53,565 nt of DNA from Patescibacteria group bacterium (GCA_038061715.1 JBBTYP010000004.1:1-53565), one strand, 5' to 3'; positions 1,802 through 51,133 are shown, counted from the first letter of the stretch. A program made the numbers and translations. Notes: a model not told the origin generated them from the letters alone.

Positions 1802-2812
1802 ATGATGATAACTATGAAAAAAACGCTCAAACTCCTTTCACTCACGGCACTTTTGGTCTTCCCAGGACTTACTCAAGCCGCTGAGGTTTCCTTTTCACCG
1901 ACCTTGATTGATCTTGAATTAGAGGCGCGAGAAGTAGTTACTAGAGACATCACTATCACCAACGAAACAGCCAGTAAAATTCATCTGTATGCCACAGTTA
2001 ATGAAATCGACATTGACAACGCTGGTGCTATTAAAGAATTTGTCGCACCAGTGATGGATGATCGCACGACTGCCATCACTAGCTGGATTGAAATTACTCG
2101 CGGCCGCATTGAACTGGAAGCTAATGAAACTAAAACTGTCCCGTTAATTGTTCATGTCAATCAAAATGCAGTAACGGGTGAGTACCACGCCTTTATCGGG
2201 TTAGTTAAAGAGGCGAATCGTCCCTTGGCGGAGGCTAAGGTGATGGCGGGAACGGCCGATGGAATTATTCTTAAGGTTGCCTTGGAGGATAAAGCAGCCG
2301 CTTCACTTAGAATCACATCTTTTCTGGCTGATAGATTTATGGTGCGCGAAGCCAGTCAACAGGTGGAAGTGACCATTAAAAATGAAGGCTCCAAAACGAC
2401 CGCTCCGCTTGGTGAAGTGGTTTTTTATAATTCAAAGGGAGAAGAAATTGCTTCAGAATCACTATCTACAAGCGGAATGAGTCTCGAGCCTGGACAAAGC
2501 GAGACGATGGCTGTAAGAGTTCCTTTCTCTCACAAACTCGGCCGATTTAAGGCCAATCTAGTTGTTCGGTATGGCAAAGATAATCAGCAGGCCGTTTTTG
2601 ACACTACTCAGTTTTATCTTATTCCACCACGCTATTTGATAATAGTTATAGTTTTAGTCATTTCGCTCTCACTTTTGATTACTTACTTGCTCCGCCGGAT
2701 GTTTTATGATGAACTACAGGATGACGAAGACGGTAACGAAGTCCCTCTGTATGTAAGTCCTAACAAGGAGCATATTACACACGACCATGACATTCATCTT
2801 ACAAAGAACTAG
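1802..2812 (+). CDS. Anchored cell-surface protein, DUF916/DUF3324 (WxL-interacting protein)-like
   Basis: 336 aa. Signal peptide MKKTLKLLSLTALLVFPGLTQA. Two beta-sandwich halves (VSFSPTLIDLELEAREVVTRDITITNE; MSLEPGQSETMAVRVPFSHKLGRFKANLVVRYG). C-terminal TM helix YLIIVIVLVISLSLLITYLL. Family assigned by motif memory only. Confidence 0.6.
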   Translation: MMITMKKTLKLLSLTALLVFPGLTQAAEVSFSPTLIDLELEAREVVTRDITITNETASKIHLYATVNEIDIDNAGAIKEFVAPVMDDRTTAITSWIEITRGRIELEANETKTVPLIVHVNQNAVTGEYHAFIGLVKEANRPLAEAKVMAGTADGIILKVALEDKAAASLRITSFLADRFMVREASQQVEVTIKNEGSKTTAPLGEVVFYNSKGEEIASESLSTSGMSLEPGQSETMAVRVPFSHKLGRFKANLVVRYGKDNQQAVFDTTQFYLIPPRYLIIVIVLVISLSLLITYLLRRMFYDELQDDEDGNEVPLYVSPNKEHITHDHDIHLTKN

Positions 2813-4397
2813 TCTTACTCTGATACTAGCAACCATGCTGGTATTTTGGAGTGTTTGGCCAAGTCTTGCCTGGGCGCAATCCTCCGTCTCCTTCAGTGTG
2901 TCACCGACTATTTTTGATATGACTGCCAATCCTGGTCAGACTTGGCAAAGTACCTTACGGATTATAAATCCCAATTCGTTTCCTCTTACTCTTTATATTG
3001 AACGCAACCATTTTATTCCTAAAGAGGAAGATGGAGTGCCGCAGTTTATTCCTCTTGGTCAAAGTCAGGATGACGATCCAAAGCTGGCAGACTGGATGGA
3101 GGTGCCAACCGAGCTGACTATTGAAGCGGAGCAAATGGTTGAATTGCCGATTAAAATTTCCATTCCAGCCGACACGGCGCCAGGGGGACATTATGCGGCT
3201 TTGATGATCAGTACCAGGCCAAACGGAGCCGCTGGAACTAGTATTGTGCAGACATCGCAAATTATTTCGGCTCTAGTCTTTCTACGAGTAACAGGTGACA
3301 TTAGTGAATCAAGCACCATCCGCTCTTTTCGTACAGCAGATTATTTTTTGAGTAAACCAGAGACAACCTTTGAAATAAGGGTGGAAAACAGAGGTAACGT
3401 TCACGTCCAGCCACAAGGAGAAATAAAAATTTACAATATGTGGGGTCAAGAGAGAGGGATAATACCTGTAAATCAAAGAACCTTATTGGGAAATGTTTTA
3501 CCCAATAGCGTTAGGAAGTTTTCTTTTGCTTGGACCAGTAAATGGTCGGTATCGGATATCGGTCGTTATACCGCCGTAGCTACTTTGGCTTATGGAGTTG
3601 ACTCAAGACAATTCATGAGTGCCGATACCGCTTTTTGGATTATTCCCTGGAAAATCATACTTATGCTGATTGCGGTTTTGGGCAGTTTAATTTACATAAT
3701 CACCTGGGCGATAAAGCTGTATGTCAGACATGTGTTAGCCCTAGCTGGTGTCACAGCAGCTGATCTAAGTGTTTCAAATACTGCAACTTTACCGAGAGAC
3801 AAGAAGGGTAAAATACAGCTTAAAGCCAGAGACGTTGCGGCTCCGATTGGAATAAGTATTCTTGATTTGCGCAGTAGGCTTAAAAGAACACATGGTCCTT
3901 GGACAGATAAGCTCCAAATATATTACGGTTTTTTAAAAACTTACTGGAAGTTTTTTACTGGCGTTGGAGCTATTCTTGTTTTAGGCTGGCTCATTGTCTG
4001 GTTTGTTACTGATGCCCTTAGTCCAAGTCGTGACTATGAAGTAACCGATCCAAGCACTGGCACCGTGGTATCAAGCAGCGCCGAGGCAAATCAAGTAGTT
4101 CTAGAGGATGCTCTTGGTTTACCAATTAAATTAGTGGGTCGCACAAAGGAGATTGATGTCATCACCAAAGTGGCCGATAAAGCAGTGTCTGTCGGTTTCA
4201 CCATCGCTACTACAACTAGTGAGATCGGGGTGGGTGAGGAGAAGACCGTCATAGTGTACGATCCAGAAGTCAGTGAACAGGCCCTACTTTTAAGTCGGAC
4301 ACTTAACAACGCATTACTTTCTGCCTTTACTACCATTGCGACATCAACCGAAAAGATAATTGTCTATGTTGGAAAGGATGCCGTGGTCAGTGAATAA
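2787..4397 (+). CDS. Paralogous DUF916/DUF3324-like surface protein with an extra TM and a LytR_C-like C-terminal extension
   Basis: 536 aa, overlapping the upstream gene by 26 nt. Signal peptide ends ...WPSLAWA. Motifs SFSVSPTIFDMTANPGQTWQSTLRIINPNS and VLPNSVRKFSFAW...GRYTAVATLAYG. TM IILMLIAVLGSLIYIITWAI, a basic loop, a second TM FFTGVGAILVLGWLIVWFV, then IKLVGRTKEIDV...TVIVYDPE...KIIVYVGKD. Confidence 0.6.
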   Translation: MTFILQRTSLTLILATMLVFWSVWPSLAWAQSSVSFSVSPTIFDMTANPGQTWQSTLRIINPNSFPLTLYIERNHFIPKEEDGVPQFIPLGQSQDDDPKLADWMEVPTELTIEAEQMVELPIKISIPADTAPGGHYAALMISTRPNGAAGTSIVQTSQIISALVFLRVTGDISESSTIRSFRTADYFLSKPETTFEIRVENRGNVHVQPQGEIKIYNMWGQERGIIPVNQRTLLGNVLPNSVRKFSFAWTSKWSVSDIGRYTAVATLAYGVDSRQFMSADTAFWIIPWKIILMLIAVLGSLIYIITWAIKLYVRHVLALAGVTAADLSVSNTATLPRDKKGKIQLKARDVAAPIGISILDLRSRLKRTHGPWTDKLQIYYGFLKTYWKFFTGVGAILVLGWLIVWFVTDALSPSRDYEVTDPSTGTVVSSSAEANQVVLEDALGLPIKLVGRTKEIDVITKVADKAVSVGFTIATTTSEIGVGEEKTVIVYDPEVSEQALLLSRTLNNALLSAFTTIATSTEKIIVYVGKDAVVSE

Positions 4398-22143: not shown

Positions 22144-22151
22144 CCTCTTTG

Positions 22152-22224
22152 TGGACCCGAGAAGATTCGAACTCCCTGCCTCCTCAGTGCAAATGAGGCG
22201 CTCTACCAAGTGAGCTACGGGCCC
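22152..22224 (-). tRNA. tRNA-Ala: tRNA-Ala (anticodon UGC), CCA not encoded
   Basis: The reverse complement is GGGCCCGTAGCTCACTTGGTAGAGCGCCTCATTTGCACTGAGGAGGCAGGGAGTTCGAATCTTCTCGGGTCCA. It folds as a cloverleaf with anticodon loop TTTGCAC, the G3:U70 alanine identity pair and T-loop TTCGAAT. Confidence 0.93.
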
Positions 22225-33978: not shown

Positions 33979-34051
33979 GGGCCCTTAGCTCATTTGGTAG
34001 AGCGCTTCCATGGCATGGAAGAGGCGAGCGGTTCAAATCCGCTAGGGTCCA
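33979..34051 (+). tRNA. tRNA-Ala: tRNA-Ala (anticodon GGC), CCA not encoded
   Basis: GGGCCCTTAGCTCATTTGGTAGAGCGCTTCCATGGCATGGAAGAGGCGAGCGGTTCAAATCCGCTAGGGTCCA. Cloverleaf with anticodon loop ATGGCAT, a G3:U70 pair and T-loop TTCAAAT. Confidence 0.93.
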
Positions 34052-34060
34052 CTGAGGTAA

Positions 34061-36112: not shown

Positions 36113-36141
36113 GAAAAAGGCACCTGCAGGTGCTTTTTTTA
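36113..36141. terminator. Bidirectional terminator between convergent genes
   Basis: Perfect palindrome GCACCTGCAGGTGC (36120-36133), flanked by an A5 tract and a T7 tract. Confidence 0.8.
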
Positions 36142-39100
36142 ATCAGCAAGTTTCTTTTCAAGTTTTCTCTTCTCGGCCCGGTAGTACAAGACCGGCACCA
36201 TAATGAGGGTCAGTACCATAGCAAATGCCAATCCAAACATAATTGCAAAGGCGAGAGGACTCCAAAAATCTGAAATGCGAGAAAGCGGTATCATACCAAT
36301 GACAGTGGTGATAGTCGTGAGAAAAATTGGGCGAAGTCGTGAAGTGGCCGCTTCAGCCACAGTGTGGATTAAATCTTGATCGCCAGAAGATGCTTTGTGG
36401 AAGATCATTGAATCCATCAAAATAATGGAGTGATTTATGATGACTCCCGCTAGCGCTATCACACCCAGCATTGAGGTAAAAGACAAAGGCAGGCCAGCCA
36501 GCGCTAGACCGCCAAAAACTCCAATTAATGAATAGGGCACAGCAAGCAGTAGGTAGAGGGAGTAACGCACCGAGTTGAAAGACAAAACCAAGATGGCCAG
36601 CATGAGGATAATACCAGCTACGATAGCCAAGCCCATTTCAGTAAATGAACGATTGATGTCTTCGGTTTCTCCACCGTAACTAACCGTTACACTATCTGGA
36701 ATCGCAACTTCGTCAGCCCGGCGTTGGAATTCACTAACTATCTCAATTGCGGTGGCGTCGCTCTTAGTGTAAGCAGAAACACTTTCAACTCGTTTTCCAT
36801 CTTCGTGGGAGATGGCGGCATTGGCTGGAGCCAAGGTAGGGGTGATTACACTACCAAGCAAAACTGGTTCACCAGTACGACTGATGACAGTGAGATTGGA
36901 TAGAGTATCGTAACTTACTTCGGGTGTAACTGAGGGGTCAGTAACAGACTGAGAATCAACTTTTATTTTTACCATTACATCAAGATCGTTCGATTTTTCA
37001 GTATAAGTGGTAGCTTTAGTGCCAAAAACTGCACTACGCAAAGTTTGAGCCACGGTAGCTGGAGAAACCCCGGCTGCGCTGGCCTTTGCTTGATCAACTG
37101 TTAAAACATATTCAATAGCATCGGTGTCATTCGTCGTTGCTATGTCGCGTGTTCCGTCTATGCTAGCCAGTAGTTTTTCTGCACTGTTGACGACAGTCGA
37201 TAACTCATCAAGATCATCGCCGGCAAATTTGATCAACACTGGGGCACCTGTAGCCGGTCCGTTTTGTTGTTCTTGAATGATAATTTTGGCACCCTTGATA
37301 GTAAGTAGGCTACTCCGTAATTCGCTAGATAATTCTTGTGAAGTTTGCTCACGATCTTCTTTTAACTCAACTGTGATGTTGGCGTAGCGGCCGCCGGAGT
37401 CTGTGCTACCAGTGAAATAAGAACCACTGCCAGCTGTCGAAGTAAAAGATTTAATATAATCTTGCTCGTAAAGAGTTTCTTCTACTTGTCGTAGTACTAG
37501 ATCAGTTTGACCAACTGGGGTACCTTGCTGAGTCTCAACGCTGACATAAATGTACGGTACATCCTCGGGCGGAAAAAAAATGGTTTTAAGAGCGCCCGTA
37601 ATTGGTAGGACTAATACCAAAACGAAAGCCATGAATAAACCAGTCAGGAAAAAAGTTTGTGCCCTGGATTTGCCCAAGAAAATGATGAGTTTCTCTTTAT
37701 ACCAAAGTTGAGCTTTATGATTCCACTCCTCTTGGAATTTTTCAAGTTTGTTCTCGCCACCTCCAGTCTTGGTAATAGCAAGCGCCAGAAGAGGCACAAA
37801 GCCAAGCGCCACAAAGATAGAGGCAAACAAAACAAAGATAATAGTAAAGGGGATTGATGAAATAAACTGTCCAATCACACCCGAAAGAAAGAAAAGGGGA
37901 GCAAAAACAGCAACTGTAGTCATAGTCCCTCCAATTAGTGGCCACGCGTACTCTAAAATTGCGTTACGTGCAGCCGCTTTTGGGTCACCAAATTTACGAA
38001 TACGCGTATGAATCGCTTCGGTAACTACAATGCCAGAGTCGACCAAAATTCCCACCGCTAGAATGAGAGCAAACAAACTAATAAAGTTGATGGTGTTACC
38101 AGACAAATACAAGCCTATAAAAGCAATTACAAATGAAAGAGGGATAGACATAGCCGCTACCACTGATTCACGCCAGCCGAGAGTCAAGAGAAGGCAAATT
38201 AGAACTAAAATAACTGTTTCAGTTCCCGCTTCAATAAGATCACGCAAATCCTTTCGCACTTGTTCACCACCGTCATAAACAAAGAGAGCTTGTGAGCCAA
38301 ATAGGAGACCACCCTCAGCCTGAAGGATTGTCAGTTTTTCGTGTACGCCGGCTGACATTGCAGTTACGTCATAACCAGATTTTTTATAAATAGATAGAGT
38401 GAGTGCCTTTTCTGATGGAGCGTTATCCACCGAGACACGCGAAATGGATTTCTCTTCCGCCACACCATCAGTTACGACGGCGATGTCACTAATAAAGACT
38501 GGGAAATTACCCTTCGATGTGACTGGTACAGTGCGAATAGAGGCGACATCATCCAGCTTACCTTCGAAGCGAATTGCGTACTCCACCCCATCGGTGCTGA
38601 TACTACCGATTGGTAGAGACAGGTTAGCCCCTTGCAACGCAGCTGTGACGTCTCCGATAGATAATCCGTAAGTAGCAAGTGATGCACTATCGACAGTGAC
38701 CTGGATTTCACGAGCACGAGTACCACTGACATCGACTCTTGCAACACCAGGAACCTTTTTAAATTCCGTCTCTAAATCCTCGCCAAGTTGAGTAAATGAT
38801 ACCGCATCAAGATCGGAGGAGATAGAAAGAACATGGATGGGTTGGTCGGCAAAGTTAACCTCGGTTACAGTCGGATCAAAAGCGTCTGTCGGTAGGTCTG
38901 GCTTGGTCAAATCAACTGCATCTTTTACTTTGTCTATTGATTCGCTAACGTCAGCACTAGCAATGAATTCGACGGTTACCATCGAAACGCCATCTCTTGA
39001 AGTAGAAGTAACCTTTTTTACACCATCAAGATTTTCAAGGTTGTTCTCAAGTTTGTTGGTCACCAACTCTTCCATGTCACTGGCGGAAGCACCAGGGTAA

Positions 39101-39252
39101 ATAGTCGAGACGATACCAATTGGAACAATCACTTCAGGAGCTGATTCCTTAGGAATCAGATATAAGGCATAAAGACCAGCCGCAATCATAGCGACCATAA
39201 ACAGCCAGGTAAATTGGCGTTTCTTTAGAAAAAATAGCCAGAGAGAATGCAT
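36139..39252 (-). CDS. RND superfamily efflux transporter (AcrB/AcrD/AcrF family)
   Basis: 1037 aa. A 12-TM layout with two large extracytoplasmic loops and duplicated halves. Directly follows the adaptor gene. Confidence 0.9.
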   Translation of the reverse strand: MHSLWLFFLKKRQFTWLFMVAMIAAGLYALYLIPKESAPEVIVPIGIVSTIYPGASASDMEELVTNKLENNLENLDGVKKVTSTSRDGVSMVTVEFIASADVSESIDKVKDAVDLTKPDLPTDAFDPTVTEVNFADQPIHVLSISSDLDAVSFTQLGEDLETEFKKVPGVARVDVSGTRAREIQVTVDSASLATYGLSIGDVTAALQGANLSLPIGSISTDGVEYAIRFEGKLDDVASIRTVPVTSKGNFPVFISDIAVVTDGVAEEKSISRVSVDNAPSEKALTLSIYKKSGYDVTAMSAGVHEKLTILQAEGGLLFGSQALFVYDGGEQVRKDLRDLIEAGTETVILVLICLLLTLGWRESVVAAMSIPLSFVIAFIGLYLSGNTINFISLFALILAVGILVDSGIVVTEAIHTRIRKFGDPKAAARNAILEYAWPLIGGTMTTVAVFAPLFFLSGVIGQFISSIPFTIIFVLFASIFVALGFVPLLALAITKTGGGENKLEKFQEEWNHKAQLWYKEKLIIFLGKSRAQTFFLTGLFMAFVLVLVLPITGALKTIFFPPEDVPYIYVSVETQQGTPVGQTDLVLRQVEETLYEQDYIKSFTSTAGSGSYFTGSTDSGGRYANITVELKEDREQTSQELSSELRSSLLTIKGAKIIIQEQQNGPATGAPVLIKFAGDDLDELSTVVNSAEKLLASIDGTRDIATTNDTDAIEYVLTVDQAKASAAGVSPATVAQTLRSAVFGTKATTYTEKSNDLDVMVKIKVDSQSVTDPSVTPEVSYDTLSNLTVISRTGEPVLLGSVITPTLAPANAAISHEDGKRVESVSAYTKSDATAIEIVSEFQRRADEVAIPDSVTVSYGGETEDINRSFTEMGLAIVAGIILMLAILVLSFNSVRYSLYLLLAVPYSLIGVFGGLALAGLPLSFTSMLGVIALAGVIINHSIILMDSMIFHKASSGDQDLIHTVAEAATSRLRPIFLTTITTVIGMIPLSRISDFWSPLAFAIMFGLAFAMVLTLIMVPVLYYRAEKRKLEKKLAD

Positions 39253-39253
39253 A

Positions 39254-40837
39254 TTAGTTTTTGATTGTGATCAACTGACCGTCTTTAAGGCCACGTGCGT
39301 CGGTAACTATACGGGTGGATTTAGTTACACCAGAGGTAATTTCGATGGCTTCACCTAAGAGTTGACCTTGTGTAACTGGCACAGCCACCAATTTCATTTC
39401 ATCATTTACGATAAAAACAAATGCACCATCGGCAGTAATTTTGAGTGCAGACAAAGGAATGATAGTTCTCTCATCAGTTTTTTCAGCTGTGACTTGCGAG
39501 AAAGTGATTTTAACTGTGGCCCCATTGGTTAGCTCGCTGTCTTTATTTACTCCTACTACAACCGCCACCTTACCGTTAGTAGGATCAAGGGCCGCCGCTT
39601 TTGCAGTAATTACACCTGTCGCACCGCCTTCGATTACAACTGTATCTCCGACACTAATGTTTGCACTGTCAATTTCGTTAACAAAAGTCTTAATTTGCAA
39701 ACCCTCATTGTTAGCCACAATTCCAGCCGGCTGACCCAGCGTGGTATAGTCGCCAGCTTTAAGATAAAAAGCATTTACCACCCCTTGAATTGGGGTACGA
39801 ATAATAGTTTTTTGGTAAGCAGCCTGTGCTGCTTGCAGTGAGCCAAGCGCAATCTTAACTTGTGCATCAGAAGCCGACACTGTTCCACCACTCGCCGCGA
39901 GTTGTGCCCGTCTAATGGAATCATTAGCAGAGGCTATCGCTGACAGTGACGCGTCTAGGGATGCGCGAGTGTTAATTAGAGTAGTTCTAAGAGCAGTAAA
40001 GTCGGTGCTAAAATTTTGTAATTCCGCTTCAGTGAAACCTCCACTACCACCTGGCTGAGCAAATAAAGTAATGAACGCGTCCACCAGGGCAATCGTGCGT
40101 TCAGTTTGGTTTTTAGCATAAGCAATCTCGGTCTCCAGGTTACTATTAATGCTAATAGTACTAGAACGACCTTGCCAATCAGTGAGAATTGTTTGAAAAG
40201 CTACCCGCTCGTTATTGAGTTTTGTGGTCATTCCACCGCCATCAATTTTTAGACCAGGTATCGTGGCATTAGGACTACCGAAGAAAGGGTCAATACTATT
40301 TCGTACAATGCTGTTAGCAGTATTGTACGAAGCCCGACAGCTACTTACGGCTCCGTTTAGAGCACTGTTGAGTACTGTCTTTGATTCACTAAGTCCCACT
40401 CCGCTTTGGGCAGAGGCAGCCAGAGCCGCTTCGTAAGCACCTTGAGCCTGCACTACAGCAGCCCGTTCGGCATTGCCCTCAATTGTGGCCAAAACTGTTC
40501 CAGCTCCAATTGACTGTCCGACCTCAACTTGGACCGCTGTCACTCGTCCACTGGCCTCCGCTTGAAGGTTGGCTTCAGACACGGCCTCGACCCTACCAAT
40601 GGTATCGAATTTTGCGTCGGTAGATAGTTCACCGATTGAAAGTACACTAACCTCAGTTGTGGTTGATACAATCGGTGTGTCGGTAGCGTCATTAGCACCA
40701 AAAAATTTAAAGCCCAGCACAATTACAAGCACCAGTAATGCAAAACCACCTAATCGCTTACGGCCAAATTGGGTTTTAGGATTGAAAAACACCCTGAAAT
40801 CCTTAAGCACGTCCAATAATACGTTTGCGATATTCAT
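39254..40837 (-). CDS. Efflux RND periplasmic adaptor (MFP/HlyD family) with an expanded helical hairpin
   Basis: 527 aa. N-terminal TM, lipoyl/beta-barrel motifs (GRVTAVQVEVGQSIGAGTVLATIE; IRTPIQGVVNAFYLKAGDY). A ~200-aa Ala/Ser-rich helical insert lies between them. The stop is 1 nt from the RND start. Confidence 0.85.
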   Translation of the reverse strand: MNIANVLLDVLKDFRVFFNPKTQFGRKRLGGFALLVLVIVLGFKFFGANDATDTPIVSTTTEVSVLSIGELSTDAKFDTIGRVEAVSEANLQAEASGRVTAVQVEVGQSIGAGTVLATIEGNAERAAVVQAQGAYEAALAASAQSGVGLSESKTVLNSALNGAVSSCRASYNTANSIVRNSIDPFFGSPNATIPGLKIDGGGMTTKLNNERVAFQTILTDWQGRSSTISINSNLETEIAYAKNQTERTIALVDAFITLFAQPGGSGGFTEAELQNFSTDFTALRTTLINTRASLDASLSAIASANDSIRRAQLAASGGTVSASDAQVKIALGSLQAAQAAYQKTIIRTPIQGVVNAFYLKAGDYTTLGQPAGIVANNEGLQIKTFVNEIDSANISVGDTVVIEGGATGVITAKAAALDPTNGKVAVVVGVNKDSELTNGATVKITFSQVTAEKTDERTIIPLSALKITADGAFVFIVNDEMKLVAVPVTQGQLLGEAIEITSGVTKSTRIVTDARGLKDGQLITIKN

Positions 40838-45677: not shown

Positions 45678-45750
45678 TTACGTTGCACAAATCAAAATTC
45701 ATAGCATAATGAGGATTCGTTATTAGTCAGAAGGTACTTACAAGTTGATT

Positions 45751-48612
45751 ATGCATAAGCGTTACAATCACCAGGAATTCGAAAAGAAGTGGCAAGAGAA
45801 ATGGAAGCAAGACGGAACCTACAACATTGGTGCACGCGACACAAGTAAGGAGAAGGAGTATGTGCTTGTAGAGTTACCGTACCCCTCAGGAAACCTCCAC
45901 ATCGGTCACTGGTATGCTTTCGCCGTACCCGATATCTACGTGCGCTATAAGCGAATGATGGGAAAACAAGTACTTTACCCGATGGGCTTTGATGCATTTG
46001 GATTGCCAGCTGAAAATGCTGCCATTAAGCGTAATATAAACCCGCGGGTGTGGACCAAAAGCAATATCGAGTACATGAGAAATCAACTCGATAGTATGGG
46101 GGTAGCTTTCTCCTGGGATAAAACAACTTCAACTATAGACCCCGAATACTACAAATGGACGCAGTGGATGTTCACGCAGTTTTTTGAAAACAACATCGCT
46201 TATCGCGGCGAAGGTGTAGTGAACTGGTGTCCAGGTTGTCACACGGTGATAGCCAACGAACAAGTGCTTCTCGATGGTACTTGCGAGCGCTCAGGGGACA
46301 TGATTGAAAAGAAGCGCATGCCGCAATGGATGCTTCGTATCACTGACTTTGCCGATGCACTGATTGACGATCTAGACACTCTAGGAGACTGGCCCGAACA
46401 TATTAAAGAGGCCCAACGCCAATGGATCGGCCGTAGTGAAGGCGCCGAGATAGATTTCAAGCTAAATGTTAATGGTGCAAGTAGTACTGTTAACAGTACT
46501 ATAACTGTCTTTACGACTCGGCCTGACACTTTGTTTGGGGCGACTTATCTGGTGTTGGCTCCCGAGCATCCGTTTCTTGAACAGAACAGAAACAGTATCG
46601 AAAACTGGAAGGAAGTAGCGACGTACGTGCAGACAGCCAAGCAAAAGAGTGAAATCGAACGCGGGGACAACACCAAAGAAAAAACTGGTGTGAAGCTAGA
46701 AGCCATTACAGCAACTAATCCAGCAAATGGCGAAGAAATTCCTGTCTACATTGCGGACTACGTACTTGCTGGATACGGAACTGGCGCCATCATGGCCGTC
46801 CCCGGCCATGATGAACGTGACAATGAGTTTGCAAAGAAATTTCGACTACCTATCAAACGAGTTGTTGAGCCTCTCTTTATTCAAACGGACGGTGGTAATG
46901 CTTTTCGAGAAACTGACCCTGTCGAGCCACGAGATGCTGTGTGTGTCGTTGTTAGGAACCCTGCAGACAACACTTACCTAGCGTTAGAATGGAAAAAGGA
47001 CCAAATGCATGGGTTGGTTACTGGCGGTATAGATGATGGAGAGGACTTAATCGAAGCGGCTCGGCGTGAAGTTACTGAAGAAACTGGATATAAAAATCTC
47101 AAAGTGGTACGTGATCAGAACTTTTCAATTCATTGTAAATTCTGGCATCGAGTTAAAGAAGTGAATCGACATGCTCGCTTTACGTACGTATTTTTTGAAC
47201 TGGAAAACAACGAACGCAAAGTCGTCTCTGAGTCTGAGCAGGCTTTACATGACTCACAGTGGATTTCAGAAAATGATCTCGATAGTTTCTTTACTGTATT
47301 CGAAGCTAAGTTTGCAGTTACTCTACTTAAAAATCCTGAGTACATACACACAGGCAATGGACTAATCAGTCACTCTGGTGAATTTGACGGCATGGATTCT
47401 GAAGCGGCGAAAATCGTTATTACGGAAAAAGTTGGTGGGCGAATGACGAATACTTATCGCTTGCGTGACTGGTCGATTGGGCGACAGCGGTATTGGGGGG
47501 TGCCGATTCCAATTGTGTATGACCCGCAAGGGAAGGCGCACATCGTGCCAAAAGAGCACTTACCTTGGACACTGCCAGAAGATGTAGACTTCACACCGAC
47601 AGGGGAGCCGCCCCTAGCGAAATCACAAGAGCTCAAAGAGCGCACTGAACATATCTTTGGTGCGGGTTGGTTGCCGGAGGTAGAAACGATGGATACCTTC
47701 GTCGATTCTTCGTGGTACTTTTTGCGCTATCTTGATAACCATAACGATGAAGAGTTTGCGAGCAAAGTTCGCCAACAGGAATGGATGCAAGTGGACATGT
47801 ACTTTGGTGGCGCCGAGCACACCACCATGCACCTCCTGTACTCTCGTTTCTGGCAAAAGGCGCTCCATAAGCTTGGACTGACTGTACACAGCGAACCGTA
47901 CAAAATGCGTATCAACCGCGGCCTCATCCTCGGGCCAGACGGCAACAAGATGAGTAAGTCAAAAGGCAATGTAGTTGACCCAGATGAACAAGTAAAATTA
48001 GTCGGTGCCGACACAGTAAAGATGTACTTGGCCTTTATGGGCCCCTACCAAGGCGCCAACTATCCATTTGACCTAGGTGGTATCGCTGGCATTCGTCGTT
48101 TTTTGGAGCGTGTCTACGGTTTAGAAGAACATCTGGTAGAGGTGGAGTCGAAAGAAACAACCGTTCTTCTGCATAAGACCATCAAAAAAGTTGGCTCTGA
48201 TATCACAGAATTTAAATTCAACACAGCTATTAGTGCGTTGATGATTTTGATGAATCAGTTCGAGAAAAATAATCTTAGTATGCAGAGCTATCAAAAATTT
48301 CTCCTTATATTGGCACCGTTTGCTCCACATATCTCAGAAGAGCTTTGGCACCTGACCGGGCAGTCTAGCAGTATTCATATTGAAAATTTCCCCAACTATG
48401 ATCCTAGCCTTGTTAAAGATGAGGTAGTCACTATCGGTGTTCAAATCAACGGCAAACACCGCGGTGAAATTACCATTGCCGTCAACGCTACTGAAACCGA
48501 AGCCTTAAACAGCGCAAAAGGAAATGCCGAACTAGCAGCAAGGCTAGCAAGGATTGTAATTAAAAAAGTGGTCTATGTACCCAGTCGAATTCTTAATATT
48601 ATTGGAGAATAG
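45751..48612 (+). CDS. leuS: Leucyl-tRNA synthetase with an inserted Nudix hydrolase domain
   Basis: HIGH (PSGNLHIGHWY). CP1 editing motifs (TTRPDTLFGATY, AVPGHDERDNEFA). YRLRDWSIGRQRYWGVPIP. KMSKS (NKMSKSKGN). Nudix box GGIDDGEDLIEAARREVTEETGY at 47023-47091. ATG 45751 is preferred over TTG 45745. Confidence 0.95.
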   Translation: MHKRYNHQEFEKKWQEKWKQDGTYNIGARDTSKEKEYVLVELPYPSGNLHIGHWYAFAVPDIYVRYKRMMGKQVLYPMGFDAFGLPAENAAIKRNINPRVWTKSNIEYMRNQLDSMGVAFSWDKTTSTIDPEYYKWTQWMFTQFFENNIAYRGEGVVNWCPGCHTVIANEQVLLDGTCERSGDMIEKKRMPQWMLRITDFADALIDDLDTLGDWPEHIKEAQRQWIGRSEGAEIDFKLNVNGASSTVNSTITVFTTRPDTLFGATYLVLAPEHPFLEQNRNSIENWKEVATYVQTAKQKSEIERGDNTKEKTGVKLEAITATNPANGEEIPVYIADYVLAGYGTGAIMAVPGHDERDNEFAKKFRLPIKRVVEPLFIQTDGGNAFRETDPVEPRDAVCVVVRNPADNTYLALEWKKDQMHGLVTGGIDDGEDLIEAARREVTEETGYKNLKVVRDQNFSIHCKFWHRVKEVNRHARFTYVFFELENNERKVVSESEQALHDSQWISENDLDSFFTVFEAKFAVTLLKNPEYIHTGNGLISHSGEFDGMDSEAAKIVITEKVGGRMTNTYRLRDWSIGRQRYWGVPIPIVYDPQGKAHIVPKEHLPWTLPEDVDFTPTGEPPLAKSQELKERTEHIFGAGWLPEVETMDTFVDSSWYFLRYLDNHNDEEFASKVRQQEWMQVDMYFGGAEHTTMHLLYSRFWQKALHKLGLTVHSEPYKMRINRGLILGPDGNKMSKSKGNVVDPDEQVKLVGADTVKMYLAFMGPYQGANYPFDLGGIAGIRRFLERVYGLEEHLVEVESKETTVLLHKTIKKVGSDITEFKFNTAISALMILMNQFEKNNLSMQSYQKFLLILAPFAPHISEELWHLTGQSSSIHIENFPNYDPSLVKDEVVTIGVQINGKHRGEITIAVNATETEALNSAKGNAELAARLARIVIKKVVYVPSRILNIIGE

Positions 48613-48697: not shown

Positions 48698-49723
48698 ATG
48701 ATTACTTTTAAACCTAAACAAGTTACAAAAACCTTACTCGACGTCTTACCAGACCGAGCTCGTGACGTTCTTGAAAAACGCTATGGTCTTGGTGCCGAAG
48801 GCGAAACCTACACCCTAGAAGCAATTGGCAAATCCTATGGAATCACTCGCGAGCGAGTCCGCCAAATTGAAAACTACGGCCTCCAATCAATTCAAAAATC
48901 TGAGGTCTACAAAAAGAACTACGATCTTTTTCTAGAGATGCAAAAGCTCATTGATCAGCTGGGCGGTGGAATTATCGCGGAACATGTCCTTTTGGACGAA
49001 CTGAGCACTGACGCCTCTGTGCGTAATCATATTTATTTCCTCCTAATTGTCGGCGATCCATTTTTTAAAGCTAAGGAAAACCCTCAATACTCGCACCGCT
49101 GGTACACCGAGCGAAAAATTGCCGATACCGTAGAGAAGGCTTTGAAAAATGTTCATAAAAGTCTTGATAAAGATGCTCTAGTGTCTGAATCTGAAATCCT
49201 TGAACGCTTTCGTAACGAACTGATAGAAATTGCTGACCGCCACGACGAAGAGACTCTCAAGCGCTGGTTGCTAATTTCCAAGCAGATCGGTCGCAACCCG
49301 CTAGGCGATTGGGGACCAGCCGATAGTCCAAATATCCGGGTTAAAGGGATTCGAGATTACGCTTACTTAGCTGTGAAGCGTCATGGCTCACCAATGCACT
49401 TTAAAGAAGTAGCTGAAGCTATTAATGAGCTTTTTGGACATGTCGCTCATGTGGCTACCACTCATAATGAACTTATTAAGGACGCTCGCTTTGTCTTGGT
49501 GGGTCGTGGCCTTTACGCTCTCTCAGAGTGGGGCTACACGGCTGGCGTGGTTAAGGAGGTTCTGCGCCAGATTCTTGAAGTTGATGGCCCACTTTCTCGT
49601 GAAGAGATCATTGATAAGGTTCGCAAGGAGCGATATGTTAAAGACAACACCATCATGGTGAACCTGCAAGACGCAAATCTTTTCAAACGTTTAACGAATG
49701 GTACTTATACCGTAGCCGACTAA
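48698..49723 (+). CDS. Sigma-70 region-4-like HTH protein with a C-terminal HARE-HTH-like domain
   Basis: 341 aa. RARDVLEKRYGLG...YTLEAIGKSYGITRERVRQIENYGLQSI is sigma region 4-like. The C-terminal HFKEVAEAINELFG...DARFVLVGRGLYALSEWGY is HARE-HTH-like. Confidence 0.7.
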   Translation: MITFKPKQVTKTLLDVLPDRARDVLEKRYGLGAEGETYTLEAIGKSYGITRERVRQIENYGLQSIQKSEVYKKNYDLFLEMQKLIDQLGGGIIAEHVLLDELSTDASVRNHIYFLLIVGDPFFKAKENPQYSHRWYTERKIADTVEKALKNVHKSLDKDALVSESEILERFRNELIEIADRHDEETLKRWLLISKQIGRNPLGDWGPADSPNIRVKGIRDYAYLAVKRHGSPMHFKEVAEAINELFGHVAHVATTHNELIKDARFVLVGRGLYALSEWGYTAGVVKEVLRQILEVDGPLSREEIIDKVRKERYVKDNTIMVNLQDANLFKRLTNGTYTVAD

Positions 49724-49795: not shown

Positions 49796-51133
49796 ATGGG
49801 TGATTTGTTTAAAGCAATCTTTGGGCAATACGCAGGGAAGCTATTTCTGTTACTTGGTCTCGGGCTGTTGGTGTATATGTTTACCGCTACAGGCGTTAAC
49901 CCAGCACCCGTACTCACACTATTGGTTGCTTTGTCACCGATTTGGATTCCCTTAACACTTTTTCATATTTTCTTTGAACGCTGGCAAGACTATACTGGTC
50001 TTAAATTCCAGGACGACAACGGGCGCGTCACTCTGTGGGTCAAACCACCGCAGGAAGTTTTTAAATCACCTGAAGCAATGGAGGGTATCTTTGCCCAAAT
50101 TTGGAACAGTTACTCAAGAGACAATCTTATACAGACTTATATTGACGGGAAGCGCCCGCTCACTTTCAGTTTTGAACTGGCCAGTGTGAATGGGGAAGTT
50201 CGAATTTATATAAATGTACCAAGAAAGAAAGTTAAAAACGCCATTGAGTCTCTACTGTACGCGAACTATCCAGGTATTGAAGTGATTGAACTACCTGTTG
50301 ATTACACCGCCGAGGTTAAGAACGATTTAAACAAGCACGATTTCATGGGCTTTCACTTTGGAAAAAAAGACGATGAGATATTTCCTATCAAAACTTATAT
50401 TGAGTTTGGTCTAGACCGGATGCCTAAGGAGGAAGAAAAATTTGAACCAATGGCCCCCATTATCGAGCACATCGGCAAGTGCAAACCGCACGAAAGGATT
50501 TGGGTTCAATGGCTTTGTACGCCTCATGTTAAGCATGATTTCAAAAATGGTTTTCTGGAGGTGAAACCTACCTGGGAGGCAGCCGGAAAAGCGAAAATTA
50601 AAGAAATAATGGAGGGAGAGCATTCTGGTGATACTGACAACCCCTTCACCCCGTCGAGATTAACCACTGGCGAGAGAGATAATATTGCAGCCATGGAGCG
50701 CAATATTAGTAAATACGCCTATGAGGTATCGATACGTGCTATGTACATTACCCTCGATAAAGATAAATTTGATGGTGATATGATCGGTCCGATTCTTCGG
50801 GGCATGTCACAATGGGATATGATTGGTCGAAATCAAATCGGTCTTCGCTGGCGAACCGACTTCGATTGGAACTGGATTTCGGATCCATCGGGAACCAAGA
50901 AAAAATATTACAAAAAACGTGAGTTGGATTTCTATAAAAGTCGCAACTGGATCGATGGTGACGCTAAAAAACATTCTGACTCACCAAAAGTAATGTCTTC
51001 CGAAGAATTGGCTAGCATGTTCCACATCCCAGGCAAGACGGTTATTACTCCTAGTCTGGCCAGGGTTGAAGCCATCCGTCGAAATGCTCCGAGCAATCTC
51101 CCAACTGGCGCACCAACTGACTTATGGCAATAA
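49796..51133 (+). CDS. Hypothetical 2-TM protein with a large soluble domain, translationally coupled to mltG
   Basis: 445 aa. TM1 KLFLLLGLGLLVYMF and TM2 LTLLVALSPIWIPLTLFHIFF. Overlaps the mltG start by 10 nt. No enzyme motif recognised. Confidence 0.65.
   Translation: MGDLFKAIFGQYAGKLFLLLGLGLLVYMFTATGVNPAPVLTLLVALSPIWIPLTLFHIFFERWQDYTGLKFQDDNGRVTLWVKPPQEVFKSPEAMEGIFAQIWNSYSRDNLIQTYIDGKRPLTFSFELASVNGEVRIYINVPRKKVKNAIESLLYANYPGIEVIELPVDYTAEVKNDLNKHDFMGFHFGKKDDEIFPIKTYIEFGLDRMPKEEEKFEPMAPIIEHIGKCKPHERIWVQWLCTPHVKHDFKNGFLEVKPTWEAAGKAKIKEIMEGEHSGDTDNPFTPSRLTTGERDNIAAMERNISKYAYEVSIRAMYITLDKDKFDGDMIGPILRGMSQWDMIGRNQIGLRWRTDFDWNWISDPSGTKKKYYKKRELDFYKSRNWIDGDAKKHSDSPKVMSSEELASMFHIPGKTVITPSLARVEAIRRNAPSNLPTGAPTDLWQ

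What the first reader, a model, noticed from the sequence alone, without database searches (positions are those of the whole stretch)
46873..47352. Canonical Nudix hydrolase domain inserted within leucyl-tRNA synthetase
The LeuS ORF carries every LeuS landmark: HIGH, CP1 editing motifs TTRPDTLFGATY and AVPGHDERDNEFA, YRLRDW..RQRYWG, and KMSKS. Between ...FRLPIKRVVEP and GNGLISHSGEFDG, E. coli LeuS (from memory) has only about 20-25 residues, whereas here there are ~160 extra residues. These contain a textbook Nudix box GGIDDGEDLIEAARREVTEETGY (GX5EX7REUXEEXGU, nt 47023-47091), preceded by the expected strands AVCVVVRNPADNTYLALEW. There is no stop or frameshift at either junction, so it is one polypeptide.

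Aminoacyl-tRNA synthetases generate aminoacyl-adenylates and Ap4A. Both are 'nucleoside diphosphate linked to X'-type or closely related substrates. A Nudix module sitting at the exit of the editing domain could therefore be a built-in clean-up or editing activity. I am not aware of a described LeuS-Nudix fusion.
Basis: partly seen in the sequence, partly recalled or inferred. Interest (0 to 1): 0.72.

Follow-up and report, generated by a model that had tools for sequence, protein, structure and literature searches.

The report
Swappable Nudix enzyme cassette inside LeuRS
The leucyl-tRNA synthetase gene of this candidate-phyla-radiation bacterium really does carry a complete, apparently active Nudix hydrolase domain nested in its editing domain, and in this group of bacteria such domains behave as interchangeable cassettes that are swapped, lost and multiplied inside an otherwise highly conserved essential gene.

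Summary
One uninterrupted ORF (45751-48612, +) encodes a bacterial LeuRS with intact HIGH, KMSKS and CP1 editing motifs. A 160-aa insert (46873-47352) is a bona fide Nudix domain: Pfam 53.9 bits against a cutoff of 21.1, AF2 pLDDT 93.8, and Foldseek hits to NudI, MutT, Ap4A-hydrolase and RppH folds. It is not an assembly artefact. The exact protein lies on 10 contigs, and 91 of the 120 nearest LeuRS (Patescibacteria MAGs) carry an insert at the same site.

New findings:
- The ExxEE catalytic triad is kept in 259 of 268 copies.
- The same Nudix family sits at four or more LeuRS sites, up to three copies per protein. Ser-hydrolase, HAD and Ham1 domains nest there too.
- Insert and core phylogenies are uncoupled (Spearman 0.06). 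LeuRS genes mostly 86-100% identical in DNA carry Nudix cassettes only about 20% identical, a different domain, or none. Breakpoints lie in the conserved LeuRS flanks.
- Within a cassette type, purifying selection is strong.

The best reading is an autonomous pyrophosphohydrolase cassette hosted by LeuRS and exchanged by homologous recombination. A direct role in LeuRS editing or Ap4A clean-up is untested and less favoured. I found no published description.

The parts
45751..48612 (+). Complete LeuRS-Nudix gene (953 aa from ATG 45751; an in-frame TTG at 45745 is the mechanical ORF start; the stop codon is included)
   Evidence: TIGR00396 878 bits; P0001, 100% identity, 953 aa
45898..45909 (+). 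HIGH signature of the class I synthetic site
   Evidence: H/G/H are invariant in the 99-sequence alignment
46513..46530 (+). CP1 editing-site threonine-rich motif TTRPDT
   Evidence: T255, T256, R257 and T260 (P0001 numbering) are invariant
46777..46821 (+). CP1 GTG...AVPGHDERD motif with the conserved editing Asp residues. It also acts as the left homology arm where recombination breakpoints fall.
46873..47352 (+). Nested Nudix cassette (aa 377-536 of the 955-aa ORF): a 19-aa leader followed by the Nudix fold
   Evidence: (pLDDT 93.8)
46927..47280 (+). Pfam PF00293 NUDIX match (aa 395-512)
47023..47091 (+). Nudix box GX5EX7REUXEEXGU (G427...Y449). E442, E445 and E446 are predicted metal ligands.
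   Evidence: (90-91 of 91 conserved)
47227..47250 (+). Family-conserved SExE..H motif downstream of the box (E496, E498, H502; W506 follows). It is a candidate catalytic-base or substrate loop.
   Evidence: E496 71/91, E498 73/91, H502 60/91, W506 87/91. The functional role is inferred only.
47353..47499 (+). Resumption of CP1 (GNGLISHSGEFDG...) through YRLRDW..RQRYWG. This is the right homology arm for cassette exchange.
47947..47961 (+). KMSKS signature

Best explanation
The gene encodes a bifunctional protein. It is a normal bacterial LeuRS with intact synthetic and CP1 editing sites, and a surface loop of the editing domain hosts an autonomously folding, catalytically competent Nudix pyrophosphohydrolase of the small MutT/NudI-like type. 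The Nudix module is not a fixed part of the LeuRS mechanism. It is one of at least nine deeply diverged cassette types that Patescibacteria keep inside LeuRS. Each type is under purifying selection. Cassettes are exchanged, deleted or replaced by homologous recombination between LeuRS genes, with crossovers in the conserved flanks (AVPxHDERD on the left, EFDGM on the right). Some lineages stack several types at different LeuRS sites. On this reading LeuRS acts as a constitutively expressed, conserved 'safe harbour' for small hydrolases (Nudix, Ham1, HAD, Ser hydrolase). The Nudix most likely hydrolyses a free nucleotide-type substrate, either NTP/dNTP or NDP-X, as house-cleaning in organisms that depend on salvaged nucleotides. 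Shown here: the fold, motif conservation, distribution, cassette exchange and breakpoints. Inferred: catalytic activity, the substrate class, independence from LeuRS chemistry and the 'safe harbour' rationale. The stated confidence is for the whole package. That it is a real, nested, motif-intact Nudix domain exchanged as a cassette I put at about 0.9.
For: Nudix identity and fold: Pfam 53.9 bits; AF2 of the insert gives pLDDT 93.8 and pTM 0.87; AF2 of the full-length protein gives pLDDT 89.7 and pTM 0.80, with the insert blocks at 85-97; Foldseek hits NudI, 2azw, Ap4A hydrolases and RppH at probability 1.00. Catalytic competence: G427 is kept in 91/91 inserts and E442/E445/E446 in 90/91, and ExxEE is intact in 259 of 268 domain copies, including 226 of 231 nested ones. 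LeuRS intact: the editing and synthetic motifs are invariant in 99 sequences. Real and widespread: the protein lies on 10 contigs; 91 of 120 nearest LeuRS carry the insert; 25 of 29 top GTDB-species loci from Paceibacterota, Parcubacteria, Moraniibacteriota, Berkelbacteria, Adlerbacteria and 'Saccharibacteria'-labelled MAGs have it nested at the same site; 123 representatives at 50% identity score E<=1e-30, nearly all of them LeuRS. Cassette behaviour: core and insert identity are uncorrelated, Spearman 0.06 over 4005 pairs. L082 and L083 are mostly 86-100% identical in DNA over the flanking genes and LeuRS but 36-53% across the insert, and syntenic relatives have no insert (L085) or a non-Nudix domain (L084). 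Breakpoints fall at codons ~353 and ~538-540, inside conserved LeuRS flanks. A second independent pair, L086/L087, shows the same pattern. There are at least 9 types below 35% identity. Within-type purifying selection: pN is 0.078 in the insert against 0.14 in the core. Autonomy: free-standing 160-181 aa homologues with their own starts and stops sit in unrelated neighbourhoods. Scaffold idea: Ser_hydrolase, HAD and Ham1 (201.7 bits) domains nest at recurrent LeuRS sites. Nudix occurs at ~aa 211, ~245, 376 and ~626, up to 3 copies per protein. Copies within a protein are mostly 23-50% identical to each other, but 50-64% identical to copies at other sites in other proteins. Nearest characterised relatives are generic NTPases: 2azw 52.6 bits, NudI 48 bits, MutT-like.
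Against: No activity or substrate has been measured. The Nudix family is strikingly specific to LeuRS: about 117 of the top 150 representatives are LeuRS or LeuRS fragments. It has entered LeuRS at several sites, which a purely permissive-scaffold model does not predict and which hints at some functional or regulatory link to LeuRS. I could not inspect model coordinates or PAE, so I do not know whether the Nudix active site faces the editing pocket or the tRNA path. Synonymous sites are saturated, so dN/dS values are only indicative. I could not test whether genomes lacking the nested copy carry a free-standing one. I also could not exclude a second, canonical LeuRS elsewhere in this genome.
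Confidence: 0.55

Rival explanations
1. The Nudix is chemically coupled to LeuRS. It destroys a by-product or mis-product of the adenylation reaction, namely Ap4A or other Np(n)N made from Leu-AMP plus NTP, or it acts on the 5' end or a cap of tRNA-Leu bound to the enzyme. This would be a third 'proof-reading or clean-up' site.
For: The family shows strong and repeated association with LeuRS specifically. Insertions cluster in or next to CP1 and the catalytic body. Catalytic residues are conserved. Ap4A hydrolases and RppH are among the fold neighbours, and lupin Ap4A hydrolase is the best single-sequence PDB hit, though weak at 21 bits. An aromatic residue is common 18 aa after the box (Y in 48/91, W or F in 20/91), which recalls the Ap(n)A-hydrolase tyrosine; that comparison is from memory and is only a lead.
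Against: Close relatives with the same LeuRS core lack the insert or carry a non-Nudix domain. Cassettes only 20% identical are interchangeable. HAD, Ser-hydrolase and Ham1 domains, which have no obvious link to adenylate chemistry, occupy the same sites. Free-standing homologues exist. Profile searches place the family nearer NudI/MutT-like NTPases than Ap4A hydrolases. All specific NCBIfam models score far below cutoff: RppH 27-31 bits against 116-118. Aminoacyl-adenylates have no pyrophosphate bond for a Nudix enzyme to cleave (established chemistry).
Confidence: 0.2
2. The cassettes are conflict modules under diversifying or balancing selection. Examples would be hydrolases that neutralise LeuRS-directed nucleotide-mimic toxins, nucleotide second messengers, or phage- or host-derived modified nucleotides, which would make the locus hypervariable.
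For: Four allelic states (two unrelated Nudix types, another domain, and empty) occur among genomes mostly 86-100% identical in this region. Several ancient types are maintained and shuffled. Multi-copy proteins stack different types rather than duplicates. An accessory enzyme domain also exists in a related synthetase, as the NCBIfam model name 'ileS_w_GNAT' shows (listed).
Against: No PADLOC model matches the insert or the whole protein. No close relatives occur in viral contigs. PHROGs gives only generic Nudix matches. The gene neighbourhood is conserved housekeeping synteny, not a defence island. Recombination among divergent lineages plus conserved flanks could produce the same pattern without diversifying selection.
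Confidence: 0.13
3. The insert is a selfish or neutral passenger. It would be a non-splicing analogue of an intein that persists because imprecise deletion from an essential gene is lethal, and that spreads through the conserved flanks with no benefit to the cell.
For: It sits in a conserved essential gene, shows presence/absence polymorphism, and moves horizontally with breakpoints in conserved flanks.
Against: Catalytic residues are retained in ~97% of copies, and within-type purifying selection is as strong as on LeuRS itself. Both imply selection on enzymatic function. Clean insert-less alleles exist, so loss is feasible. There are no intein, Hint or endonuclease features.
Confidence: 0.07
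4. The insert is an assembly chimera or frameshift artefact joining a LeuRS gene and a Nudix gene.
For: None beyond the a priori possibility in metagenome assemblies. GC is slightly lower in the insert (0.38-0.45 against 0.45-0.52).
Against: The identical protein lies on 10 contigs of 10 kb to >200 kb. About 90 homologues from NCBI, JGI, ENA and Logan assemblies have the same architecture. Both junctions are in frame, and the fold is predicted confidently in context.
Confidence: 0.01

Closest known systems
Free-standing small Nudix NTP pyrophosphohydrolases (E. coli/Klebsiella NudI, MutT-like proteins, E. faecalis 2azw)
   Same: Same fold and Nudix box. They are the best profile and Foldseek matches: 2azw 52.6 bits, NudI 46-48 bits, TM 0.6-0.7. 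They are single-domain proteins of ~140-160 aa. Free-standing members of the insert's own family exist in Patescibacteria.
   Different: Only 13-22% identity. No NCBIfam equivalog reaches its cutoff. Here the domain is nested in frame inside another enzyme's domain and carries family-specific motifs: R396, K471, N474, SExE..H and W506.
Nudix Ap4A hydrolases and RppH
   Same: They are fold neighbours (4mpo, 4ijx, 3i7u, 1kt9, 4s2w). They would fit the idea that a synthetase by-product is the substrate.
   Different: They are no closer than the generic NTPases. RppH models score 27-31 bits against cutoffs of 116-118. The function is untested.
Idiosyncratic domain accretions in class Ia synthetases (the CP1 editing domain itself, the leucine-specific domain, and IleRS with a GNAT domain as named by NCBIfam NF040702)
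   Same: An extra globular module is inserted into or appended to a conserved synthetase body without disrupting it.
   Different: Those modules are fixed, lineage-wide parts of the enzyme. This one is polymorphic among near-identical genes, comes in many types and copy numbers, and is an unrelated metabolic hydrolase. What I know of ileS_w_GNAT is only its model name.
Inteins and homing-endonuclease insertions in conserved essential genes
   Same: In-frame insertion at conserved sites of essential genes, presence/absence polymorphism among close relatives, and horizontal spread that exploits conserved flanks.
   Different: No Hint fold, no splicing residues (the insert starts LFIQ and ends IHT|G) and no endonuclease. 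The domain stays in the mature protein and keeps its own catalytic site.
Bifunctional Nudix fusions such as NadM-Nudix (recalled from memory, not tested here)
   Same: A Nudix hydrolase covalently joined to a nucleotide-handling enzyme.
   Different: Those are end-to-end fusions in a shared pathway. Here the Nudix is nested within a domain, the partner is a tRNA synthetase, and no shared pathway is evident.

Membership tests
Nudix hydrolase superfamily (PF00293) | Nudix box GX5EX7REUXEEXGU | tested here: met
   GGIDDGEDLIEAARREVTEETGY at aa 427-449. It is the only regex hit in the window and is conserved across 91 homologues.
Nudix hydrolase superfamily (PF00293) | Profile score above the curated cutoff | tested here: met
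   53.9 bits (whole protein) and 59.6 bits (insert) against a cutoff of 21.1.
Nudix hydrolase superfamily (PF00293) | Alpha/beta/alpha Nudix fold | tested here: met
   AF2 pLDDT 93.8, with the box forming the loop-helix at residues 59-71 of the insert. Foldseek gives probability 1.00 to many Nudix structures.
Nudix hydrolase superfamily (PF00293) | Mg/Mn-dependent hydrolysis of a nucleoside diphosphate-X bond | not testable with these tools
   Needs an enzyme assay. Only conservation of the metal-binding glutamates supports it.
Bacterial leucyl-tRNA synthetase (TIGR00396 leuS_bact) | Equivalog HMM above cutoff; HIGH and KMSKS motifs; CP1 editing motifs | tested here: met
   878 bits against 548. 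Motif coordinates are and their invariance. Best PDB hit is T. thermophilus LeuRS at E 3e-196.
Ap4A hydrolase subfamily of Nudix | Specific sequence-family membership, plus a conserved Tyr ~16-18 aa after the box (the latter recalled from the literature) | tested here: inconclusive
   No specific model passes. PDB Ap4A hydrolases score no better than the generic NTPases. The window has F466/W467 at that spacing, and the family consensus is Y in 48/91.
RppH RNA pyrophosphohydrolase (NF001938/NF001936) | Equivalog HMM above cutoff | tested here: not met
   25-31 bits against cutoffs of 116-118.
NudI / NudB / NudC / ADP-ribose pyrophosphatase equivalogs | Equivalog HMM above cutoff | tested here: not met
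   NudI 21-26 bits against 95; NudB 26-30 against 103; NudC 18 against 158; ADPRase 15 against 248.
Intein | Hint fold; N-terminal Cys/Ser; C-terminal His-Asn followed by Cys/Ser/Thr | tested here: not met
   The insert begins LFIQ and ends YIHT followed by G. Pfam finds only NUDIX, and the fold is Nudix.
Known anti-phage defence proteins (PADLOC-DB v2) | Match to any defence-system HMM | tested here: not met
   No hit for the insert or the whole protein at E<=0.01.

The most novel reading that the evidence does not exclude
LeuRS of Patescibacteria is a 'safe-harbour' locus for a previously unrecognised kind of domain-level mobile cassette. Whole enzyme domains (many Nudix types, Ham1, HAD, Ser hydrolases) are nested in frame at a few permissive sites of an essential, highly conserved gene. 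They are maintained as ancient allelic types and moved between lineages and between sites, in an intein-like population logic without splicing. The cassettes may tune nucleotide hygiene or counter LeuRS-directed or nucleotide-based attack, according to host or environment.
Probability: 0.3. Interest if true: 0.85.

Novelty: new variant of a known kind. Interest (0 to 1): 0.66.

Why it matters
Aminoacyl-tRNA synthetases are textbook examples of slowly evolving essential enzymes whose extra domains are fixed and lineage-wide. Here an essential synthetase carries a polymorphic, exchangeable enzymatic module. Near-identical LeuRS genes differ by an entire catalytic domain, and some LeuRS proteins stack up to three different Nudix types or add Ham1, HAD or Ser-hydrolase domains.

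If confirmed biochemically, this would give three things:
- A new class of naturally bifunctional synthetases.
- A set of natural, tolerated insertion sites in CP1 and the catalytic body that could be used for protein engineering.
- A concrete window on how genome-reduced, salvage-dependent CPR bacteria acquire and shuffle accessory enzymes by recombination inside conserved genes.

There is also an annotation consequence. NCBI names several of these proteins only 'class I tRNA ligase family protein', and the nested domains are not reflected in the product names.

Tried and rejected
**Searches that led nowhere**
- The word-index homologue search with the insert alone found nothing. The cassettes are too divergent, so I switched to the full-length protein and to an exhaustive profile search.
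- The alignment of all cassette types was too diverse for the search for related loci. I rebuilt it from the window's own type (A3).
- Model coordinates and PAE are not exposed, so I could not measure the geometry of the Nudix site relative to the editing pocket.

**Hypotheses rejected**
- Assembly chimera: rejected.
- Intein or homing element: rejected, with no Hint features.
- Known defence system: no PADLOC hit.
- Phage origin or carriage: only partial Nudix-box-level hits in viral contigs and generic PHROGs matches.
- 'Fast-evolving, decaying insert': rejected. Within a type, pN is lower than in the LeuRS core.
- Recent tandem duplication as the source of multi-copy proteins: rejected. Copies within a protein are mostly 23-50% identical.
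- Assignment to a defined Nudix subfamily (RppH, NudI, NudB, NudC, ADPRase, Ap4Aase): none reaches its cutoff.

**Literature**
- Five queries ran: Nudix with leucyl-tRNA synthetase, LeuRS, LeuS, tRNA ligase, or Patescibacteria, plus Nudix with aminoacyl-tRNA synthetase and Candidate Phyla Radiation. None returned a description.
- Six other queries timed out.
- Two candidate papers were checked and are irrelevant.
- Subscription journals are not covered, so absence of prior description is not proven.
Full report
**1. What is in the sequence**

The region holds one long ORF, 45745..48612 on the + strand. The public copy of the protein (P0001, 100% identical) is 953 aa, so translation most likely starts at the ATG at 45751.

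It is an unambiguous bacterial LeuRS. NCBIfam leuS_bact scores 878 bits against a cutoff of 548, and T. thermophilus LeuRS matches at E = 3e-196. HIGH, TTRPDT, GTGAIMAVPGHDERD, YRLRDW..RQRYWG and KMSKS all sit at the coordinates given.

The HMMER alignment to T. thermophilus LeuRS breaks between its residues 363 and 378 and resumes at query residue 536. The window therefore has about 160 residues where the reference has 14. That segment (46873-47352) contains the Nudix box GGIDDGEDLIEAARREVTEETGY at nt 47023-47091. It scores 53.9 bits (in context) and 59.6 bits (alone) against Pfam NUDIX, whose cutoff is 21.1. The Nudix-box pattern occurs nowhere else in any frame of the window.

The insert lies inside the CP1 editing domain. 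Pfam tRNA-synt_1_2 is interrupted after profile position 142 of 185, and the insert begins 17 residues after the conserved HDERD.

**2. Fold**

- The insert alone, modelled from an alignment of 26 diverse inserts, gives AF2 pLDDT 93.8 and pTM 0.87 with the beta-grasp-plus-helix order expected of Nudix.
- Foldseek finds 497 PDB chains at E <= 0.001. The top hits are NudI (6dt3, 3oga), E. faecalis 2azw, Ap4A hydrolases (4mpo, 4ijx, 3i7u, 1kt9) and RppH (4s2w, 6vck), at TM 0.6-0.7 and 13-22% identity.
- The full-length protein models at pLDDT 89.7 and pTM 0.80, and the insert blocks score 85-97. The domain is therefore predicted to fold in context.
- Coordinates are not exposed, so I could not measure how the Nudix site is oriented relative to the editing pocket.

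**3. Not an artefact, and not a one-off**

- The exact protein is carried on 10 contigs, ranging from 10-20 kb up to 0.2-1 Mb.
- Of the 120 best LeuRS hits in 5.8 billion proteins, 91 have a 135-163 aa insert at the same position, and nearly all of those carry a precomputed PF00293 hit. They come from NCBI, JGI, ENA and Logan assemblies. Where named, they are Paceibacterota, Parcubacteria, Kaiserbacteria or 'Patescibacteria group'.
- In a scan of one genome per GTDB species, 25 of the 29 best loci have the Nudix nested in LeuRS at the same site. They are labelled Paceibacterota, Parcubacteria, Moraniibacteriota, Berkelbacteria, Adlerbacteria and 'Saccharibacteria'.
- An exhaustive profile search of 1.84 billion cluster representatives found 123 with E <= 1e-30. 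About 117 of the top 150 are LeuRS or LeuRS fragments.

**4. The domain looks catalytically alive, and LeuRS looks intact**

- Across the 91 inserts, G427 is invariant and E442, E445 and E446 are each kept in 90 of 91. R441 is kept in 72 of 91, and E433 is E, Q or D in all 91.
- Over all 268 Nudix copies in 270 proteins, the ExxEE triad is intact in 259. That includes 226 of 231 nested copies, and one of the failures is a truncated sequence.
- Further family-specific conserved positions are R396, K471, N474, E496, E498, H502 and W506.
- In the 99-sequence full-length alignment, the editing-site residues (TTRxxT and the HDxRD aspartates) and the HIGH and KMSKS signatures are invariant.
- The parsimonious reading is a bifunctional protein.

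**5. Which Nudix?**

No defined subfamily fits. NCBIfam equivalogs all fall far below their cutoffs:

| Model | Score (bits) | Cutoff (bits) |
|---|---|---|
| RppH | 25-31 | 116-118 |
| NudB | 26-30 | 103 |
| NudI | 21-26 | 95 |
| NudC | 18 | 158 |

A profile of the family against PDB sequences ranks 2azw first (52.6 bits), then NudI (46-48 bits), then MutT-like proteins. Ap4A hydrolases come lower, at 35-41 bits. The best that can be said is a small MutT/NudI-like pyrophosphohydrolase. An Ap(n)A or RNA-end specificity is not excluded.

**6. Unexpected anatomy in relatives**

The same Nudix family is nested at other LeuRS positions, given here in window-protein numbering:
- ~aa 211-214, just before CP1, often as two copies (P0121-P0124, P0127, P0171).
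- ~aa 240-252, at the start of CP1 (P0125, P0157, P0245).
- ~aa 626-642 (P0130, P0216, P0230).

Up to three copies occur per protein (P0121, P0122). These placements come from my own mapping and were confirmed independently by Pfam.

Copies within one protein are mostly only 23-50% identical to each other. Off-site copies, in contrast, are 50-64% identical to site-376 copies in other proteins. Multi-copy proteins therefore collect different types rather than recent duplicates, and a given type has moved between sites.

The same LeuRS sites also host other enzymes:
- Ser_hydrolase / alpha-beta hydrolase: P0100, P0155, P0203, P0219, P0243, P0253.
- HAD phosphatases: P0162, P0204.
- A Ham1/ITPase domain: P0185, 201.7 bits.
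- A weak DUF2204-like nucleotidyltransferase at the window's own site: P0030.
- Two unassigned domains.

**7. The insert behaves as an exchangeable cassette**

- In a core-only NJ tree, insert-bearing and insert-less LeuRS are interleaved.
- Pairwise core identity and insert identity are uncorrelated: Spearman 0.06 over 4005 pairs.
- Extreme pairs include P0003/P0010 (core 96%, insert 21%), P0004/P0044 (96% and 20%) and P0062/P0074 (93% and 18%). Conversely, P0025 shares 56-59% insert identity with P0001-P0005 at only 64-66% core identity.

I fetched the DNA of one tight cluster. L082 (P0003), L083 (P0010), L084 (P0030) and L085 (P0047) are all syntenic with the window: YchF - DUF5671 - LeuRS - Sigma70_r4 protein - DUF8128 - YceG.
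- L082 and L083 are mostly 86-100% identical per 90-nt window through the upstream gene, LeuRS and the downstream gene. Identity falls to 36-53% only across codons ~370-525.
- L085 has a 19-residue loop instead of the insert.
- L084 has a non-Nudix domain.

At fine scale, identity is near-perfect up to codon ~353, just past AVPAHDERD, and recovers at codon ~538-540, at EFDGM. The replaced tract is therefore the cassette plus about 20 and 10 codons of diverged LeuRS flank. This is the signature of homologous recombination with a divergent donor LeuRS.

A second pair from different sources (L086 from ENA, L087 from JGI) shows the same picture. Downstream DNA is 95-100% identical, the insert is 39-54% identical, and a mosaic tract of 68-90% identity covers the 5' half of LeuRS.

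The 90 inserts fall into at least 9 types below 35% mutual identity. The window's type is shared by P0001-P0005 and others.

Within that type, comparing the window with L082, pN is 0.078 in the insert against 0.14 in the LeuRS core. pS is saturated at about 0.74-0.82. The cassettes are therefore old, well-conserved lineages that are shuffled, not fast-decaying sequence.

**8. Autonomy**

Free-standing proteins of 160-181 aa from the same family were found in four MAGs: L017 and L020 (Parcubacteria-labelled), L025 (Saccharibacteria-labelled) and L018 (Bacilli-labelled). They include the N-terminal leader and have their own start and stop codons. Their gene neighbourhoods are unrelated to each other. 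One 1318-aa protein (P0186) combines the family with GNAT domains and an M17 aminopeptidase.

**9. Interpretation**

The best-supported explanation is an autonomous, active Nudix pyrophosphohydrolase cassette hosted in a permissive loop of the LeuRS editing domain. It is one of many such cassettes that Patescibacteria exchange by recombination through the conserved LeuRS flanks.

The house-cleaning flavour of the co-occurring nested domains (Nudix, Ham1, HAD), together with the salvage-dependent lifestyle of CPR bacteria (established knowledge), makes nucleotide-pool hygiene the most likely role. That step is inference.

The striking LeuRS specificity of the family and its repeated entry into LeuRS are real points in its favour. 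Against it stand the interchangeability of 20%-identical cassettes, insert-less and other-domain alleles in near-identical backgrounds, free-standing homologues, and the lack of any specific Ap4A-hydrolase signal.

A conflict-driven hypervariable module is a further possibility. It has no support from PADLOC, PHROGs or viral contigs. A purely selfish passenger is unlikely, given the conservation of the catalytic site.

**10. Novelty**

Synthetases with extra domains and Nudix fusions are both known kinds. A Nudix nested in LeuRS CP1, its multiplicity of sites, copies and types, and its cassette-like exchange inside an essential gene were not found in any paper I could search. Six queries timed out and subscription journals are not covered.

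Public databases already contain the proteins with automatic Pfam hits, and NCBI names several only 'class I tRNA ligase family protein'. I rate it a new variant of a known kind, of above-average interest.

Noticed in passing
Related proteins P0100, P0155, P0203, P0219, P0243, P0253 (Ser_hydrolase); P0162, P0204 (HAD); P0185 (Ham1); P0030 (DUF2204-like); P0200/P0185 and P0135 (unassigned ~145-190 aa domains): LeuRS of this clade hosts many other nested enzyme domains at a few recurrent sites (~aa 244-252, 592-605, 618-644 and ~806 in window-protein numbering). LeuRS therefore seems to be a general scaffold for small hydrolases, not only for Nudix.
   Followed up: partly
P0186 (1318 aa): A non-LeuRS protein carries the same Nudix family between GNAT acetyltransferase domains and ends in an M17 (leucyl) aminopeptidase catalytic domain. 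This is an odd multi-enzyme architecture of unknown meaning.
   Followed up: no
window 45751-48612 compared with T. thermophilus LeuRS: The HMMER alignment jumps from T. thermophilus residue ~593 to 638 at the KMSKS region, with no query residues in between. This LeuRS therefore appears to lack the leucine-specific insertion domain found in T. thermophilus and E. coli.
   Followed up: no
L085 (P0047) and P0039, loop at the insert site: The insert-less alleles keep a 19-aa loop (YQNDGVFRDTENVSANSTY) that aligns with the leader of the window-type cassette (FIQTDGGNAFRETDPVE). This suggests they arose by deletion of the Nudix core rather than representing the ancestral state.
   Followed up: partly
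window 48698-49723 and 49796-51133: The genes immediately downstream of LeuRS are a 341-aa Sigma70_r4/HARE-HTH protein and a 445-aa DUF8128 protein with no Pfam hit above threshold in my scan. They are syntenic in every related locus fetched.
   Followed up: no
window 36-1796 and 2787-4397: Two large ORFs (586 and 536 aa) have no Pfam family at E<=1e-4.
   Followed up: no
window 22151-22224 (-) and 33979-34052 (+): There are two tRNA-Ala genes (anticodons TGC and GGC). No other Rfam family reaches its gathering score in the window.
   Followed up: no
window 36139-40837 (-): An AcrB-type RND transporter (582 bits) sits next to a HlyD-like membrane-fusion protein, in what is otherwise a small-genome Patescibacteria contig. 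UvrA, UvrB, ATP synthase alpha and a CHASE4 histidine kinase are also present.
   Followed up: no
P0149, P0151, P0165, P0172, P0206, P0259: A minority subclade of the Nudix family has E-to-Q or E-to-K at the second catalytic glutamate (..E.xQETGY, often with GQT in the box). These may be inactive or altered-function variants.
   Followed up: no
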